Source of the DNA: a virus
Lineage: Duplodnaviria; Caudoviricetes
DNA length: 64,000 bases
Strand: one strand, 5' to 3'
IMG/VR virus record: IMGVR_UViG_2531839014_000003
Coordinates: 1 to 64,000 of that record
Shown here: positions 11,187 through 55,052 of the stretch, one piece after another
Numbering within the stretch: position 1 is the stretch's first letter
Layout of the letters: each line of letters begins with the position of its first letter
Notes under the pieces: model-generated
What the model was told of the DNA's origin: nothing
The model's database searches: none
The model's input: only the letters and a program-made list of their open reading frames with translations
Position numbers and translations under genes: made by a program

Positions 11187-13136
11187 TTATTTAGATAAAA
11201 TTTTCAATAATTCTTCCTCATTTATAATTGGAATTCCTAATAACTTTGCTTTTTGGTTTTTACTGGATGTGCTCTTCAAATCATTGTTCACAAGATATGT
11301 TGTCTTTGCTGACACTGAACCTGATACCTTTCCACCCAAAGATTCTATTCTCTCTTTTGCTTCATCGCGATTAGAAAAATGTAAAAGCGAACCTGTAATA
11401 ACAAAAGTCTTACCAGATAAATCTACTAAGTTTGAACTTCGCAATGGAATTTTAAACCTGAATTCTTTAGCCAGTTTATATACATCGTTTTTATTCGTAT
11501 TCCACCATGTTATTAAAGATTTATTCATCTCTTTACCGAATCCTTCAAGACCTACAAAGGCATATTCGGCTTCTGAGTCTACTATTAGCCTAAATGAGTC
11601 CAAAGAATAATTGCTCGCTTTAGCTATATCCTTGCTTGTACTTTTACCAATTAGCGGAATAGATAATGCATATAAGAATCTATCCAGTGTTATATTTCTG
11701 CTTTTTTCAATTGCTTCCAAAAGATTATCTGTTGAACGTTCACCAAAACCATTAAGAATTGAAATCCTATCTGCATAATCTTTAAGATGATAAATATCCT
11801 GTATAGATGTTAACCAACCAAGATTAACGAATTTCTCAAGCGTTGCTTCTGATAATCCATCAATATTAAGAGCATTCCTGGATACAGCATGGACAAGTTT
11901 GCCTAGCAACTTTGCCTGACAACTGTTATTACAGCAATGTAGTGTTTTACTACCGTTTTCATTGTGTACCGCTACAATTCCTCCACAAGTAGGGCATTTT
12001 TCTGGAAGTTTCCAGGTATTACTTTTTGTAAGATTGATATGAACTTTTGGGATTACCATATTGGCCCGATAGACCTGAATTGTATCTCCGACGCCTAACT
12101 GAAGATCTTCGATATAAGAGATATTATGTAACGTAGCTTTTGTCGTAATAGCTCCGCCTAAGTCAACTGGTTCAAATATTGCTACAGGGTTTATTAGCCC
12201 CGTTCTTGATGTTTGCCATTCAATGTTGGTTAGCGTAGTCTCATATAAATCATCAGCCCATTTTAATGCAATCCGGCAGCACTCATGGTGAGAGGTTTTT
12301 CCCAACGATTCAGACAAGCTCTTACTATTTAGTTCAAAGATAATTCCATCTACAGGATATTTGTAATCAGTAGGACTCAGATATTTAATACATTCCTCCA
12401 CTGAGCGCCAGTACCTATCTACTGTCTCAAATCCTAAATAATCTAGGTAGGCCAAATCATCCCATTTGGAATCCTTATCTTCATACTTGTCAGTTTGGTT
12501 AAGTTTAGTTACTGATTCAAACACTACAAATGATAGTTTTCTATCTCTTACAATGTTCATGTCTAAATTTCGCAATGTACCAGCTGCCAGATTTCTTGGA
12601 TGACTATAAGGTTCATCTAATTCAGAATTAATTCTTTCAAATTCTTCCCAAGAGATGACGCACTCTCCTCTTAACTCCAAATATCCTTTGTAGGAAATTT
12701 TCATAGGAAGATTTGAAACATACTTACATGCCTCTGTGACATCCTCTCCAAAAATGCCATCACCTCTTGTAATTCCCTGTATAAATTCACCGTTGTTAAA
12801 TCGTACAACTGTAGTCAATCCATCAAGCTTAAAAGAGCCGTAGAAATCATTTGTCCCAATGATCCTCTTAATTTCATCGATAGATTTAGTTTTATCTGCA
12901 CTTAACATAGGTTTACTATGTTTTACTTTCTTCAATCCATCAATAACATAACCCTGTACTTTTTTAGTTGGTGACAAAGCCAACACAAAACCTGTCTCTT
13001 TCTCAAGTGATTCAAGTTCATCATATAAATCATCATACTGTTTATCACTCATAATTGGACTATCTTCTTTATAGTACGCAACGGATGCAGCATGAAGTAT
13101 TTTTGTTAATTCTTTGATTCTGTGTATTTTGTTCAA
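11187..13136 (-). CDS. ligA: NAD-dependent DNA ligase
   Basis: KLDG adenylation motif, TRGDG, OB fold, zinc finger, HhH, BRCT (FVITG..GGKVSGSVS). Confidence 0.96.
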   Translation of the reverse strand: MNKIHRIKELTKILHAASVAYYKEDSPIMSDKQYDDLYDELESLEKETGFVLALSPTKKVQGYVIDGLKKVKHSKPMLSADKTKSIDEIKRIIGTNDFYGSFKLDGLTTVVRFNNGEFIQGITRGDGIFGEDVTEACKYVSNLPMKISYKGYLELRGECVISWEEFERINSELDEPYSHPRNLAAGTLRNLDMNIVRDRKLSFVVFESVTKLNQTDKYEDKDSKWDDLAYLDYLGFETVDRYWRSVEECIKYLSPTDYKYPVDGIIFELNSKSLSESLGKTSHHECCRIALKWADDLYETTLTNIEWQTSRTGLINPVAIFEPVDLGGAITTKATLHNISYIEDLQLGVGDTIQVYRANMVIPKVHINLTKSNTWKLPEKCPTCGGIVAVHNENGSKTLHCCNNSCQAKLLGKLVHAVSRNALNIDGLSEATLEKFVNLGWLTSIQDIYHLKDYADRISILNGFGERSTDNLLEAIEKSRNITLDRFLYALSIPLIGKSTSKDIAKASNYSLDSFRLIVDSEAEYAFVGLEGFGKEMNKSLITWWNTNKNDVYKLAKEFRFKIPLRSSNLVDLSGKTFVITGSLLHFSNRDEAKERIESLGGKVSGSVSAKTTYLVNNDLKSTSSKNQKAKLLGIPIINEEELLKILSK

Positions 13137-50599: not shown

Positions 50600-51559
50600 C
50601 TATTCTATTTTTACTCCTATATATTCTAACACTTCTCTCATACCAAGGCCGCCATCTGATACAGGTTTCATGCAAAAATACCATAGTTCCGGATGAGTTT
50701 TCTTCAACATCTGAAATCTATTTGGCTCTTTTTCTAAATGGCAACCATAGCCACAGAAAATACAACCGGTTCTTTTATATCCTGTCGTATACCATTTACC
50801 AGTTTCATCCTGTTTAATTTCTCCATATACTGATGGATATGGTAAATGGTATGTAGCTATGTATTCTAATACATTTTGTTCAGTCCAAAATGACATTGGC
50901 TGACTTCTTTGTTCTTTTCCTTCAAAAGCATTGCACCCATATTTTATCCAATTTAATTTTCTATTAACGCTCTCTTCTGTCATTGTACCAAATATTGGTT
51001 TTAATCCTGTTCTTTTAGCAAAATTTTTGTTAGGAGTTTTCTTTAGTTTTGTACAACAATAGTCAGATATCTTAAAAGGTGCATCTACAAGAAACCACCA
51101 TTTACCATTTCCTCCAAACAAAGTATTTTCTATTTCCCCACTTAAATATTTTGCTCTTGTACACGTCTGATCATTTTTTGCGCTATTGACATATCCAGAT
51201 ATTCTCTTACTAATAATTGGATAACCGTAATTCAAAACAACATCTTTAAATAATATTCTTTTTCCTTTTCTGTCTCTTGGGTATTCTATTATTGTTTCAA
51301 CATCTAATCCTTCAAATTCTTTTTTCAAGAAATCACCATATGTCTTTACGTGTTCTCGTAATTCAGGAAATTCTAATCCTGTATCTGAAAACCACAATAC
51401 TAATTTACAATGGAACATGTCACAAACTTGTGCAGCTATATAAGCCAATACTGTACTATCTTTCCCACCACTGAATGATACATAACACTTTTTATCATTT
51501 CTCAAATACCACTCCATCAGTCTTGCTTGTGTGACTCCAACCTTTTCACCTAAGGTCAT
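50600..51559 (-). CDS. PAPS reductase-family protein (start may lie further upstream)
   Basis: SFSGGKDS, CC..LKK.P, RTGCIFC; paralog of 40905..41906. Confidence 0.85.
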   Translation of the reverse strand: MTLGEKVGVTQARLMEWYLRNDKKCYVSFSGGKDSTVLAYIAAQVCDMFHCKLVLWFSDTGLEFPELREHVKTYGDFLKKEFEGLDVETIIEYPRDRKGKRILFKDVVLNYGYPIISKRISGYVNSAKNDQTCTRAKYLSGEIENTLFGGNGKWWFLVDAPFKISDYCCTKLKKTPNKNFAKRTGLKPIFGTMTEESVNRKLNWIKYGCNAFEGKEQRSQPMSFWTEQNVLEYIATYHLPYPSVYGEIKQDETGKWYTTGYKRTGCIFCGYGCHLEKEPNRFQMLKKTHPELWYFCMKPVSDGGLGMREVLEYIGVKIE

Positions 51560-51762
51560 TGATTGAAGTGCTTTAAGTTGTTCAAGAGTGTGCTTATTAT
51601 CATATGAATTAAAATTTTCAACAGAGTTTTAGCGGTTGCAAACGCTGTAAATTCAATGATTATAAGGAAGGGAATACAAGTATTACCGGTAAAGATGAGA
51701 ATATTCTCCTTGTAAATTAAAGAGATTTGAATAGAGAAGAAGATAAAAATTTTATTTTCTAC

Positions 51763-52631: not shown

Positions 52632-53348
52632 CTATTTTTTATTTTCATTTTCAACTTCTCTCTTAAACCTTTCTTCTAGTTCAAACACTGATTTACCTTC
52701 GCCTTTCATAGGCTCGTCAATCCTGCTTTGCAACCCTTTCAGCATCTTCCAATATTTAGGAAGATATAAATACATATTTTTAAGTTCTTTAAGATTTTTG
52801 TTTCTACACGACCAGCAACTTACACGGTCTAATATAGAATACAAATCAACTCCGTCCTCTTCCCAAGTGATATCGTGCTTGTAACAATAATCAAGACAAT
52901 CCTTTTCAGACATATTCCACTCTGATAAAGGAGCTATTTTGTTGTAATCTAACTTCTGAAGTCTCTTAGTTTCATCTGATGCTATACCAACGTACACAAT
53001 AGAATCTTTCGTATATTTGTTGCATATTGCTTGTTTTTTAAATGTATGCCATCTACAAGTTCCACCACAATATCCATCTCCATATACTATTTCTCCAGTT
53101 CTCTTTTTCTTTTCACGAATAAGCATGTCTATCCAAAACGGATTTTCGGGTTTTAATTCTGTATATTTAATGTTATTCTCTTCTAACACCGGAATAATTT
53201 TATCTCTCACATCATAAACTGCTTTAAACTCCATGCCAGTATCGTAAAATATCACTTCGTCAAGAGGATATTTTTTCTCAATTAACATCAATATCATAGC
53301 TGTGCTGTCTTTCCCCCAGCTACAACTTGCAATATATTTTTCTTTCAC
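52632..53348 (-). CDS. PAPS reductase-family protein
   Basis: SCSWGKDS, YDTGMEF, RVSCWSC; probable GTG start at 53348. Confidence 0.85.
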   Translation of the reverse strand: MKEKYIASCSWGKDSTAMILMLIEKKYPLDEVIFYDTGMEFKAVYDVRDKIIPVLEENNIKYTELKPENPFWIDMLIREKKKRTGEIVYGDGYCGGTCRWHTFKKQAICNKYTKDSIVYVGIASDETKRLQKLDYNKIAPLSEWNMSEKDCLDYCYKHDITWEEDGVDLYSILDRVSCWSCRNKNLKELKNMYLYLPKYWKMLKGLQSRIDEPMKGEGKSVFELEERFKREVENENKK

Positions 53349-53534
53349 ACCAACCACTAACCATATTCTAGTCAATGGTAATTATCTTCTGCTGACAAAT
53401 CGGCCAATTGTTATACTTTTACTATCACACACATTAATCTGAATTGTGATAAACCTAGTTTCACTAGGATAAGGTGTTACTCCTTTCTTTTCTTCTCATT
53501 GTCTTATTCCTACTTTCTTACTTTTCCAATTAAA

Positions 53535-54271
53535 TTGAATTTTCAAGCGATACCACTTAAAAAAATCAAAAACTATGTAATCTATTGTGATATCCCTTAT
53601 CGTGGAACTACTAAATACGCTACTAATTCGTTCTCATATGAAGAATTTTATGAATGGGTAAAAGTAGCGAGCATGAATAATACAGTTTTGATAAGTGAAT
53701 ATTCAATGCCTGATGATTTTACTTGCATTTGGCAAAAAGAAACCAAGACATTATTGGATAGTAACAAAAATAAGGATGATAAAAACAATATAAGGGTTGA
53801 AAAGTTATTTACGTATATTAGATAAAAATTCAAATTTATAAACTTTACATCTTTGATGTTTGGTATCTGTTTTTTTAAGTTTCTAATAGCACCAGCAGAC
53901 CATTTCCCGCTATTATCACCTTTAGAATCTCTTGCATAACCACCGAAATATTTTGCACCGAAACTTGCACAAAATCCTACAAGACCTAAGTACCAATCTG
54001 GATAATTTTCTTTGTTCTGCTGAACTTCCTTATATTCATTCTCTAAGATTCTTTCTGGCAATTCAGTTTCATGTTCCTGTGCATATTTTAATAATTCGAT
54101 CAACTGTTTATGTATGTCACAACCTATTCTTTTCTTATGCTTAATCTTATCAATCATGTTTGCACCACCAACAAAAGGCTCTAGATAACCATTTGTGTCA
54201 TCAGTTATATAAGACTGAATAATTGGCGCTAAATCCTTACTTAATTTGTTCTTACTTCCAACGTATCTTAT
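53535..54271 (-). pseudogene. Dam/D12-class N6-adenine methyltransferase split by an internal inversion
   Basis: YVGSK and EPFVGG on minus strand (54271-53825); YCDIPY, ISEY, EKLF on plus strand (53544-53825); re-inversion gives a 242-aa ORF. Confidence 0.88.
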
Positions 54272-54360
54272 TTTTTATTTCCCAGAAAGTGACATGTCCT
54301 TAGTAGCTACCTAACTTTTTCCTTTCTGATTTTCTTTTATAAAGACTTAAAATCAACCTT

Positions 54361-54906
54361 TTATCTAGTCATCAACGGTCTTTCATATGTAACCAATTTT
54401 TCTACAATGAGATCCTTTGGCAACAAATCTCTGCAAAAATATGCAGTCGCAAAAGGACTACCTTTTACCACACTATCCATATGATTTTTATCATGGTAAC
54501 AAACTCTTGCATCAAAACTAAGAATCTGGATACCTTGTTTGAAATATTTGTATCTCGTTTTGCCTTGTAATGAGTTCAATGGCAACAAGATAGCAAATGG
54601 TTTATTGAATGAATATAACCGTTCTAATACCTTGTCTTTAATTGAGAAAGGCGGATTACTAACAACAATATCCCACTCATCCGGTTCATATTCAAAGAAG
54701 TCTTCTCCTTCTTCTAATGAACTTCTTACTACTTTAAATCCTTCTTCTTTTAATCTCTGATAAAATGCTGACCATTCACAGTCCCAGGGACACCAAATTA
54801 TTTTATCTTTAGATAGGTATTTAATAATCGGATCTACCGCATAGGCAGGAGTAAATAAATCATCCTGCTTTTTATTCGAAGTCAAATACCCTATATTTAA
54901 TCCTAT
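54361..54906 (-). CDS. Amino (N6-adenine) DNA methyltransferase
   Basis: FTP, IWCPWD, DFF, SNPPFS; probable ATA start. Confidence 0.75.
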   Translation of the reverse strand: MGLNIGYLTSNKKQDDLFTPAYAVDPIIKYLSKDKIIWCPWDCEWSAFYQRLKEEGFKVVRSSLEEGEDFFEYEPDEWDIVVSNPPFSIKDKVLERLYSFNKPFAILLPLNSLQGKTRYKYFKQGIQILSFDARVCYHDKNHMDSVVKGSPFATAYFCRDLLPKDLIVEKLVTYERPLMTR

Positions 54907-55052
54907 AAATATCACTCCTTTGCTATTTAATTCTCTTTTATTGGAAATTACACACTAGATTAAGTATGTTTAGAATTGTATGATAACCTTAATCGTCGGA
55001 TTATCAGTCGTAATTAGGAGTAGATCAGACTATCTACTTTTTAATTCTCTGT

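What the first reader, a model, noticed from the sequence alone, without database searches (positions are those of the whole stretch)
53530..53838. 300-bp inversion that switches off a Dam-type methylase, bounded by two sites with the same 6-bp core
Seen: the gene reads ..FINLNF on the minus strand and continues QAIPLKK..YCDIPY.. on the plus strand. Breakpoints are TTAAA-TTGAAT-TTTCA (53530-53545) and TAAAA-ATTCAA-ATTTA (53823-53838), with a perfect 9-bp inverted repeat TTGAATTTT. Flipping restores a 242-aa ORF and a normal post-stop junction site. The SAM-binding and catalytic motifs are currently separated. Inference: direct trace of recombination at the junction motif, either accidental use of a cryptic site or a reversible methylation switch.
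Basis: partly seen in the sequence, partly recalled or inferred. Interest (0 to 1): 0.85.

Follow-up and report, generated by a model that had tools for sequence, protein, structure and literature searches.

The report
Flip switch in phage methylase gene
A large gut-bacterial prophage carries a DNA adenine methylase gene whose last third lies backwards here, and public assemblies hold the same phage with that 281-base piece in either orientation, so this is a real and probably reversible on/off DNA switch caught in the off position.

Summary
The first 149 codons of a D12-class ("Dam-type") N6-adenine methylase run on the minus strand (54271->53826). The last 93 codons run on the plus strand (53544->53825). 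The 281-bp segment between them is bounded by perfect 9-bp inverted repeats.

It is not a misassembly or a private accident. The exact OFF product is listed in 150 blocks of the public collection, and the exact ON product is on at least 9 contigs. ON and OFF loci differ only by a precise flip. Each state occurs on two flanking backgrounds that differ at about 173 sites.

A second natural flip lies 1.8 kb away (51619-51745) and has the same site layout: T(G/A)AAA, an identical 6-bp core, then TTTYA. Of 434 perfect 9-bp inverted-repeat pairs in the genome, these two fit the junction motif best. That points to site-specific recombination, probably by one of three phage tyrosine recombinases.

The in-gene site is lineage-specific; a 95% relative lacks a matching partner. 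OFF predominates, and IS insertions also hit the gene.

The scan reported invertible switches in phage C5 methylase genes on other DNA (e1-5781226, e1-5686072); I did not test those. This is a new variant of known gene-altering invertons.

The parts
53826..54271 (-). 5' part of the D12-class adenine methylase gene. It starts at ATA (54269-54271) and covers residues 1-148, including the SAM-binding motif EPFVGGAN.
   Evidence: Translation. Pfam PF02086 positions 1-88, E 2.5e-10. Start-codon column ATG/TTG/ATA/ATT in relatives. Protein P0124, on record from NCBI, starts MRYVGSK.
53823..53838 (.). In-gene recombination site. It reads TAAAA-ATTCAA-ATTTA on the plus strand and TAAAT-TTGAAT-TTTTA on the gene strand. 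The 9-bp repeat arm is 53825-53833.
   Evidence: In the ON state the gene strand reads TAAAT-TTGAAT-TTTCA, coding I-N-L-N-F-Q.
53544..53824 (.). Invertible 281-bp segment. It holds the last 93 codons of the methylase, including the catalytic DIPY (DPPY-type) motif. Here it is in the OFF orientation.
   Evidence: The segment is identical (0 differences) in 11 loci, 6 ON and 5 OFF, and the flip is precise. The ON product is P0002 and the OFF product is P0121.
53544..53825 (+). 3' part of the methylase gene as it lies now: QAIPLKK..YCDIPY..TYIR, with stop TAA at 53823-53825.
   Evidence: Translation. tblastn places it directly after the N-part on the same strand in relatives, for example KT588072 at 12417-12842 followed by 12873-13121.
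53530..53545 (.). Junction-type recombination site between the methylase gene and the next gene's leader: TTAAA-TTGAAT-TTTCA. The 9-bp repeat arm is 53535-53543.
   Evidence: One mismatch from TGAAA-N6-TTTCA. Relative L003 has a perfect TGAAA-TTTTGG-TTTCA just after its methylase stop codon.
54282..54328 (-). Leader of the methylase gene. The Shine-Dalgarno-like AGAAAGGA lies about 50 nt upstream of the ATA start. It is paired (CAGAAAG/CTTTCTG) with a stretch just before the start.
   Evidence: Read. The pairing partners recur in relatives L002, L040, L041, L037 and L084. No folding was run.
51605..51759 (.). Second natural inverton. Its sites are TGAAT-TAAAAT-TTTCA (51605-51620) and TAAAA-ATTTTA-TTTTC (51744-51759), around a 127-bp segment (51619-51745) in the leader of the PAPS-reductase-like gene 50600-51559.
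   Evidence: L117, L118 and L120 carry the exact reverse complement of the segment. In the flipped state the gene call grows from 319 to 345 aa, and an SD-like AAGGAAGGG faces the gene.
54361..54915 (-). Upstream neighbour: an NPPF-motif methyltransferase, weakly EcoRI-methylase-like.
   Evidence: PF13651, E 4e-5, below the curated cut-off.
52632..53375 (-). Downstream neighbour: a PAPS-reductase-like (PP-loop) gene.
   Evidence: PF01507, E 3e-9.

Best explanation
This is a gene-altering inverton. One recombination site lies inside the gene and the other lies just after it.

SHOWN: a 281-bp segment holding the catalytic third of an orphan D12-class adenine methylase is flipped precisely between two 16-bp sites that share the same 6-bp core (TTGAAT) plus TTT. 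In the ON orientation the gene encodes a 242-aa methylase with both the SAM-binding motif (FVGG) and the catalytic motif (DIPY). In the OFF orientation, found in this window, translation runs from the SAM-binding half into 59 antisense codons, and the catalytic motif is on the other strand. Both states occur in nature with identical sequence.

INFERRED: a phage-encoded tyrosine recombinase does the flipping. The provirus has three such genes and no serine recombinase. The enzyme would bind T(G/A)AAA / TTTYA arms and exchange strands across the 6-bp core, which must match between partner sites. Both products keep intact sites, so the reaction can run either way. The in-gene site arose recently in this lineage from a look-alike coding sequence. 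The switch would give phage or lysogen populations with and without adenine methylation. That could be a hedge between methylation-sensitive and methylation-dependent restriction. OFF is the common state in lysogens.
For: Both states are real and precise.
- The exact ON product P0002 is on at least 9 contigs from independent samples.
- The exact OFF product P0121 is listed in 150 blocks of the collection (at least 80 contigs counted in its cluster), on contigs up to 110 kb in the index, and NCBI is among its sources.
- The 11 loci differ by an exact flip between TTGAATTTT and AAAATTCAA, with 0 differences inside the segment.

The flip is fast relative to point mutation.
- L119 (ON) against the window, L123 and L124 (OFF): 0 differences in 6.5 kb outside the flip.
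- L125 (OFF) against L118, L120 and L121 (ON): 0-1 differences.
- The two backgrounds differ at about 173 sites, and each carries both states.

The flip is site-specific.
- A second polymorphic inversion at 51619-51745 has the same layout.
- Of 434 perfect 9-bp inverted-repeat pairs spaced 100-400 bp in the genome, only these two pairs have 4 or fewer arm mismatches to TGAAA-N6-TTTCA. The next best has 6.
- The motif is enriched: 53 sites with at most 1 mismatch against 23 expected, about half of them in the 18% of the genome that is non-coding.

Recombinase candidates: three PF00589 genes and no PF00239 gene.

Effect on the protein: Pfam matches the ON product across the join and does not match the OFF product. 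All other relatives are collinear.

Relevance of methylation: GATC is the most avoided 4-base palindrome in the phage, observed/expected 0.30.
Against: - No reads were available, so mixed orientations within one sample or one clone are not shown.
- The two flank backgrounds differ only upstream of the methylase gene; the region is mosaic. One ancient inversion followed by homologous recombination between strains could also place both states on both backgrounds.
- The in-gene site is not conserved. The 95% relative L038 has no matching pair, so there is no sign of long-term selection for a switch.
- OFF far outnumbers ON.
- OFF copies carry further IS256-family insertions at several points, and relatives carry nonsense and frameshift lesions. 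This fits a gene that is often simply lost.
- No recombinase could be assigned. Relatives hold no close orthologue of the two recombinases tested.
- The methylase's target sequence is unknown. It scores below NCBIfam's Dam cut-off: 49 bits against 114.85.
Confidence: 0.7

Rival explanations
1. One-off inactivating inversion. A single accidental inversion, recombinase-mediated or not, knocked the methylase out in one ancestor. The OFF allele then spread and was moved onto other backgrounds by homologous recombination between co-resident phage strains. It is a loss-of-function allele and not a working switch.
For: - OFF predominates: 150 collection blocks against about 9 contigs.
- The flanks are mosaic, with identity from just upstream of the gene onward, which allows allele transfer.
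- The in-gene site is absent from the 95% relative.
- The gene is inactivated in other ways elsewhere: IS insertions, a nonsense codon in L003, and frameshifts in L091 and L008.
Against: - ON and OFF pairs are identical over 6.5 kb on two backgrounds.
- The OFF copies examined here show no decay: neither the segment nor the N-part differs in the 11 loci.
- A second flip with the same site layout segregates independently nearby. L125 is OFF with state 1, L118 is ON with state 2, and L119 is ON with state 1.
- Both products keep perfect sites, so reversal is chemically open.
Confidence: 0.22
2. Recombinase-independent flipping. Replication template switching or microhomology recombination between the 9-bp inverted repeats produces the inversion, with no site recognition involved.
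For: The repeats are short (9 bp) and AT-rich. Inversions between short inverted repeats are known as rare spontaneous events (own knowledge).
Against: The genome holds 434 equally long perfect inverted-repeat pairs at similar spacing. The two pairs seen flipped are the two that best fit the junction-site arms. Such events are far too rare to give both states on near-identical backgrounds at two loci.
Confidence: 0.05
3. Assembly artefact. The inverted orientation exists only in this record.
For: None was found.
Against: The exact OFF product is on contigs from many independent samples and assemblers (Logan, ENA metaSPAdes and MEGAHIT-style contigs, NCBI genomes, JGI), and the ON product likewise. 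A 9-bp repeat is below any assembler's k.
Confidence: 0.01

Closest known systems
Partial-intergenic and intragenic invertons of the premature-stop kind (Chanin et al., PMC10028968; Milman et al., PMC9881135)
   Same: Short inverted repeats, one of them inside a coding sequence. A site-specific flip recodes or truncates the gene. Both orientations occur in natural populations. The repeat length is similar: the thiC inverton has 11-bp repeats.
   Different: - The target is an orphan D12 adenine methylase of a prophage.
- No alternative cassette is swapped in, so the switch is pure ON/OFF.
- The outer site doubles as one of the phage's gene-junction sites.
- Within-population switching is not yet shown here.
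Phase-variable methyltransferases: Type I hsdS 'epigenetic invertons' (PMC7672463) and phasevarion mod genes (own knowledge)
   Same: A DNA rearrangement changes the methylation state of a population.
   Different: Those systems change specificity by shuffling hsdS halves, or switch by repeat slippage, and they belong to restriction-modification systems of the cell. Here the catalytic domain of a solitary phage methylase is disconnected.
Tyrosine-recombinase switches: E. coli fimS with FimB/FimE, C. difficile cwpV with RecV, and the R64 shufflon with Rci (own knowledge; fimS in 10.1101/2022.09.20.508701)
   Same: Conservative inversion of a roughly 130-300 bp segment between short inverted repeats. 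The recombinase is encoded elsewhere in the element. One enzyme can serve several sites.
   Different: Those switches flip promoters, leaders or C-terminal cassettes. The sites here are only about 16 bp as recognisable, with a variable 6-bp core that seems to decide which sites pair. The enzyme is not identified.
Phage Mu Gin/gix and P1 Cin/cix tail-fibre inversion (own knowledge)
   Same: A phage-encoded inversion that creates two phage subpopulations.
   Different: Those use serine invertases, 26-bp sites with a 2-bp core, and an enhancer. This provirus has no serine recombinase, and its target is a methylase.

Membership tests
D12-class N6-adenine DNA methyltransferase (Pfam PF02086) | Score above Pfam's gathering cut-off | tested here: met
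   N-part alone: 41 bits against a cut-off of 22. ON product P0002: 32.2 bits across the join. The 95% relative L038, full length: 56.3 bits.
D12-class N6-adenine DNA methyltransferase (Pfam PF02086) | SAM-binding motif I (FxGxG) and catalytic motif IV (DPPY-type) in one polypeptide | tested here: not met
   In this window's OFF state, EPFVGGAN is on the minus strand and YCDIPY is on the plus strand. Both lie in one chain only in the ON state, P0002.
Dam subfamily (NCBIfam TIGR00571; GATC-specific orphan methylases) | Score above the curated cut-off of 114.85 bits | tested here: not met
   49.2 bits for L038 and 43.7 bits for L039. 'Dam-type' therefore means the class only. GATC specificity is not established.
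Inverton (reversible site-specific DNA inversion) | Segment bounded by inverted repeats | tested here: met
   Perfect 9-bp repeats, 13 of 15 when extended.
Inverton (reversible site-specific DNA inversion) | Both orientations observed in otherwise identical sequence | tested here: met
   6 ON and 5 OFF loci, with 0-1 differences between ON and OFF pairs.
Inverton (reversible site-specific DNA inversion) | Both orientations within one clonal population (phase variation proper) | not testable with these tools
   No reads are available. Long contigs in either state suggest that one state dominates in each sample.
Inverton (reversible site-specific DNA inversion) | A dedicated or shared invertase | tested here: inconclusive
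   Three tyrosine recombinases lie in the provirus at G000 80955-81773, 114790-115833 and 158568-159593, and there is no serine recombinase. None could be linked to the sites.
Junction-motif sites of this phage (TGAAA-N6-TTTCA) | Arms within about 1 mismatch, and a position between a stop codon and the next gene's ribosome-binding site | tested here: met
   Site 53530-53545 has 1 mismatch and lies between the methylase gene and the next leader. The in-gene partner has 3 mismatches now and 2 in the ON state, and it is coding, so it is a look-alike and not a junction site.

The most novel reading that the evidence does not exclude
One phage tyrosine recombinase reads minimal 16-bp sites (T(G/A)AAA-N6-TTTYA). 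The 6-bp centre of each site acts as an address. With these sites the enzyme runs several independent switches in a 165-kb gut prophage: the adenine methylase, the leader of a PAPS-reductase-like DNA-modification gene, and perhaps the tail-fibre shufflon, whose sites read CTAAA-TAGCAA-TTTAG. The same sites also mark the boundaries of exchangeable gene cassettes. Under this reading the phage would vary its own DNA-modification state as a hedge against restriction of GATC-type sites.
Probability: 0.3. Interest if true: 0.8.

Novelty: new variant of a known kind. Interest (0 to 1): 0.62.

Why it matters
Phage methylases are usually treated as fixed anti-restriction equipment. Here the same prevalent human-gut prophage is found with its adenine methylase connected or disconnected by a clean 281-bp flip. 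A second flip sits in the same DNA-modification gene cluster. If switching occurs within populations, the phage, and the lysogen whose chromosome the enzyme would also methylate, exists as epigenetically different subpopulations. That bears on host range, on restriction escape, and on how metagenomic methylation signals are read. The two natural flips also give a direct, testable handle on a very small recombination site whose core seems to decide which sites pair. Practically, automated annotation calls the OFF state as two meaningless ORFs.

Tried and rejected
- **In-frame TAA upstream.** A TAA lies seven codons after an upstream ATG (MSLSGK*KIRYVGSK) and looked like a second lesion. I rejected this: the family starts at the codon before RYVGSK (ATG, TTG, ATA or ATT in relatives), and a protein on record from NCBI (P0124) begins at the ATA.
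- **TGA at a Gly position in L003.** This suggested genetic code 25. I rejected it because sister contigs L039 and L084 have GGA there, so it is a plain nonsense mutation.
- **Contigs ending just past the breakpoint** (P0122, P0126, P0130-P0132, P0001; L130-L137, L139). These looked like further recombination partners or signs of mixed orientation. They are junctions with the terminal repeat of an IS256-family element that is also present at G000 72972-75011.
- **Exact-pattern scans of IMG/VR.** Scans for the segment and for the odd junction of L047 found nothing.
- **The other orientation of L035.** L035 carries an independent inversion in a 50% homologue. The best relative found is only 76% identical, so its other orientation could not be checked.
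- **Orthologues of two of the three recombinases.** A search in five related phage records gave no close match.
- **Promoter and terminator scan** across the segment gave nothing above chance.
- **PDB sequence search** with the ON product gave no hit.
- **Pfam on L039 full length** returned no family, although close relatives match. I treated this as a filter miss.
- **Alignment of the second inverton's segment** with the leaders of the two neighbouring PAPS-reductase genes is weak: score 46 against 24 for the two orientations. It only suggests which state is 'on'.

Full report
**1. What is in the sequence**

The window is the first 64 kb of a 165,423-bp IMG/VR provirus record with 35% G+C.

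On the minus strand, from 54271 down to 53826, lies the first part of a D12-class N6-adenine methyltransferase gene, IRYVGSKNKL..EPFVGGAN..KFINLN. It matches Pfam PF02086 profile positions 1-88 with E 2.5e-10. After ..NLNF the frame runs into 59 codons that match nothing.

The rest of the gene, QAIPLKKIKNYVIYCDIPY..TYIR*, lies on the plus strand at 53544-53825.

The perfect 9-bp repeat TTGAATTTT is at 53535-53543 (+) and 53825-53833 (-).

In phage and metagenome relatives the two parts follow each other on one strand. This holds for 34 of 35 viral loci and for all 73 further loci that hold both parts.

The in-frame TAA upstream of KIRYVGSK is not a lesion. The family starts at the codon before RYVGSK, which is ATG, TTG, ATA or ATT in different lineages. 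A protein on record from NCBI begins MRYVGSK at the ATA (P0124).

**2. Both orientations exist in nature**

A protein search with the OFF-state ORF returned P0002, a 204-aa protein that begins at the internal ATG. It is letter for letter the window's N-part joined to its C-part. It is encoded on at least 9 contigs from independent samples, in the same gene neighbourhood.

The OFF-state ORF itself (P0121) is listed in 150 blocks of the collection, on contigs up to 110 kb in the index, and has NCBI, JGI, ENA and Logan among its sources.

In 11 loci (6 ON and 5 OFF, counting the window) the only difference at the site is a precise flip of 281 bp between the two 9-bp repeats. There are no differences inside the segment. 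This excludes misassembly and a private accident.

**3. How the two states are distributed**

After both flips are normalised:
- L119 (ON) is identical to the window, L123 and L124 (all OFF) over 6.5 kb.
- L125 (OFF) differs from L118, L120 and L121 (all ON) at 0-1 positions.
- The two backgrounds differ from each other at about 173 positions.

Each state therefore sits on each background, and the flip is fast relative to point mutation.

There is a caveat. All 173 differences lie upstream of the methylase gene, and from there on the strains are nearly identical. Homologous recombination between strains could also have moved one inverted allele between backgrounds.

**4. A second flip, and a control**

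The same alignment showed a block at window 51619-51745 that is the exact reverse complement in L117, L118 and L120. I found it from the alignment pattern, without using any motif.

Its boundaries are GAAAA-TAAAAT-TTTTA and, in reverse complement, TGAAT-TAAAAT-TTTCA. That is an identical 6-bp core plus TTT between T(G/A)AAA-like and TTTYA arms, the same layout as at the methylase.

It lies in the leader of the PAPS-reductase-like gene 50600-51559. In the flipped state the gene call grows from 319 to 345 aa, and an SD-like AAGGAAGGG faces the gene. The two flips segregate independently: ON with state 1, ON with state 2, and OFF with state 1 are all seen.

As a control I listed every perfect 9-bp inverted-repeat pair spaced 100-400 bp in the 165-kb genome and scored the four arms against TGAAA/TTTCA in every register. 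There are 434 such pairs. Only two have 4 or fewer mismatches, the next best has 6, and the bulk have 10-14. Those two are exactly the two pairs seen flipped. The chance that two given pairs rank first and second is about 1 in 94,000.

The motif itself is enriched in the genome. There are 6 perfect sites against 1.6 expected, and 53 sites with at most one mismatch against 23 expected. About half of these lie in the 18% of the genome that is non-coding, typically between a stop codon and the next ribosome-binding site. Relative L003 has a perfect TGAAA-TTTTGG-TTTCA directly after its methylase stop.

I conclude that the flips are made by an enzyme that recognises these sites and not by generic repeat recombination.

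**5. The enzyme**

The provirus encodes three tyrosine recombinases and no serine recombinase:
- G000 158568-159593, XerA/XerC/XerD/integron-integrase-like, lying among the tail-fibre cassettes;
- G000 114790-115833;
- G000 80955-81773.

A short variable core that must match between partners, flanked by inverted binding arms, is how tyrosine recombinases work (established knowledge for Cre, FLP and XerCD).

The tail-fibre cassette sites (CTAAA-TAGCAA-TTTAG and variants) share the xxAAA-N6-TTTxx layout, so one enzyme might serve all of them. This is inference. I could not tie any of the three genes to the sites.

**6. Origin of the in-gene site**

The 95%-identical relative L038 is collinear. 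At the same codons it reads TAAAT-TTAAAT-TTTCA, which is already arm-like but has a different core. After its stop codon it has a different neighbour and no matching partner.

In the window's lineage a synonymous TTA-to-TTG change, together with the junction site of the PAPS-reductase cassette (core ATTCAA), created a matched inverted pair. The switch is therefore young and lineage-specific: a look-alike coding sequence that became a partner for a real junction site.

**7. Consequences**

- **ON:** a 242-aa enzyme with motif I and motif IV. Pfam matches across the join, and full-length L038 scores 56 bits.
- **OFF:** the SAM-binding half fused to a 59-residue hydrophobic antisense tail, with no catalytic motif and no Pfam match.

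The enzyme is below NCBIfam's Dam cut-off, so its target sequence is unknown. Even so, GATC is by far the most avoided 4-base palindrome in this phage: 176 observed against 596 expected. GATC-directed restriction has therefore shaped the genome.

A plausible role is bet-hedging between hosts that cut unmethylated sites and hosts that cut methylated sites, or relief of the lysogen from chromosome methylation. The predominance of OFF in assemblies fits the second idea. It also fits plain loss of the gene.

**8. Signs that the gene is often dispensable**

- Several contigs end a few dozen bases past the breakpoint region. They are junctions with the end of an IS256-family element (Mutator-family transposase, PF00872, E 3e-116; terminal repeats at G000 72972 and 75011). 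The junctions fall at six or more different points of the gene, always in the same orientation, and mostly in OFF-state copies.
- Close relatives carry a nonsense codon (L003) and frameshifts (L091, L008).
- One 50% homologue, L035, has an independent inversion of its 5' part between perfect 15-bp repeats. Its other orientation could not be found.

**9. Comparison with what is known**

Gene-altering and intragenic invertons are established (PMC9881135, PMC10028968). So are phase-variable methylation through hsdS inversion (PMC7672463) and phage tail-fibre inversion.

An ON/OFF flip of the catalytic third of a solitary phage adenine methylase, using one of the phage's own gene-junction sites, did not turn up in my four full-text searches.

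Within this scan, notes e1-5781226 and e1-5686072 report invertible switches in phage C5 methylase genes on other DNA. Note e1-5758281 reports the junction palindrome as a recombination site in this genome. I did not test the first two. The third agrees with my.

**10. Verdict**

The inversion is real, precise and polymorphic (near certain). It is very probably made by site-specific recombination at junction-type sites. Reversible switching within populations is likely but not shown, and adaptive value is open. I rate it a new variant of a known kind, with moderate to high interest.

Noticed in passing
window 51605-51759: A second natural inverton. A 127-bp leader segment of the PAPS-reductase-like gene 50600-51559 is found reverse-complemented in L117, L118 and L120. 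It lies between sites with the identical core TAAAAT. The flipped state extends the gene call from 319 to 345 aa.
   Followed up: partly
G000 72972-75011 (outside the window); junctions in L130-L137 and L139: An IS256-family element (426-aa Mutator-type transposase) with terminal repeats GAGAGTATGAAA... In other samples its 75011 end abuts the methylase gene at six or more different positions, always in the same orientation. This is why many contigs stop there.
   Followed up: partly
window 54269-54330, minus strand: The methylase gene starts at ATA. Its Shine-Dalgarno-like AGAAAGGA lies about 50 nt upstream and can pair (CAGAAAG/CTTTCTG) with a stretch just before the start. The same arrangement recurs in relatives L002, L037, L040, L041 and L084. 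It resembles the split initiation regions that another note (e1-5758275) describes for the neighbouring genes.
   Followed up: no
L035:3509-4267 (IMGVR_UViG_3300000297_000024): An independent inversion in a 50%-identical homologue. The 5' part of the gene, with its start, is flipped between perfect 15-bp repeats AATAAAACACTTTTT, next to a C5 methylase gene. The other orientation was not found in public data.
   Followed up: partly
whole provirus G000: GATC is the most under-represented 4-base palindrome: 176 observed against 596 expected from a second-order model, ratio 0.30.
   Followed up: no
L003:4150, L091, L008: Close relatives of the methylase carry other inactivating lesions: GGA-to-TGA nonsense in L003, and frameshifts at A-runs in L091 and L008.
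   Followed up: partly
L047:3448-3483 (ERZ773108 NODE-8420): In a 95% relative the gene breaks at the same codons (..FINLN|SL*) and continues into unrelated sequence for 35 nt until the contig ends. The partner sequence was not found in this genome or in IMG/VR.
   Followed up: partly
G000 157776-161810 (outside the window): The tail-fibre cassette sites read CTAAA-TAGCAA-TTTAG and variants. This is the same xxAAA-N6-TTTxx layout as the two inverton sites. A XerA/integron-integrase-like recombinase gene lies among the cassettes (158568-159593).
   Followed up: no
window 53651-53825, minus strand: In the OFF state the antisense of the flipped segment stays open for 59 codons and encodes a hydrophobic tail (..FSTLILFLSSLFLLLSNNVLVSF..). 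By base composition a run this long is expected about 1% of the time. It is probably incidental.
   Followed up: no
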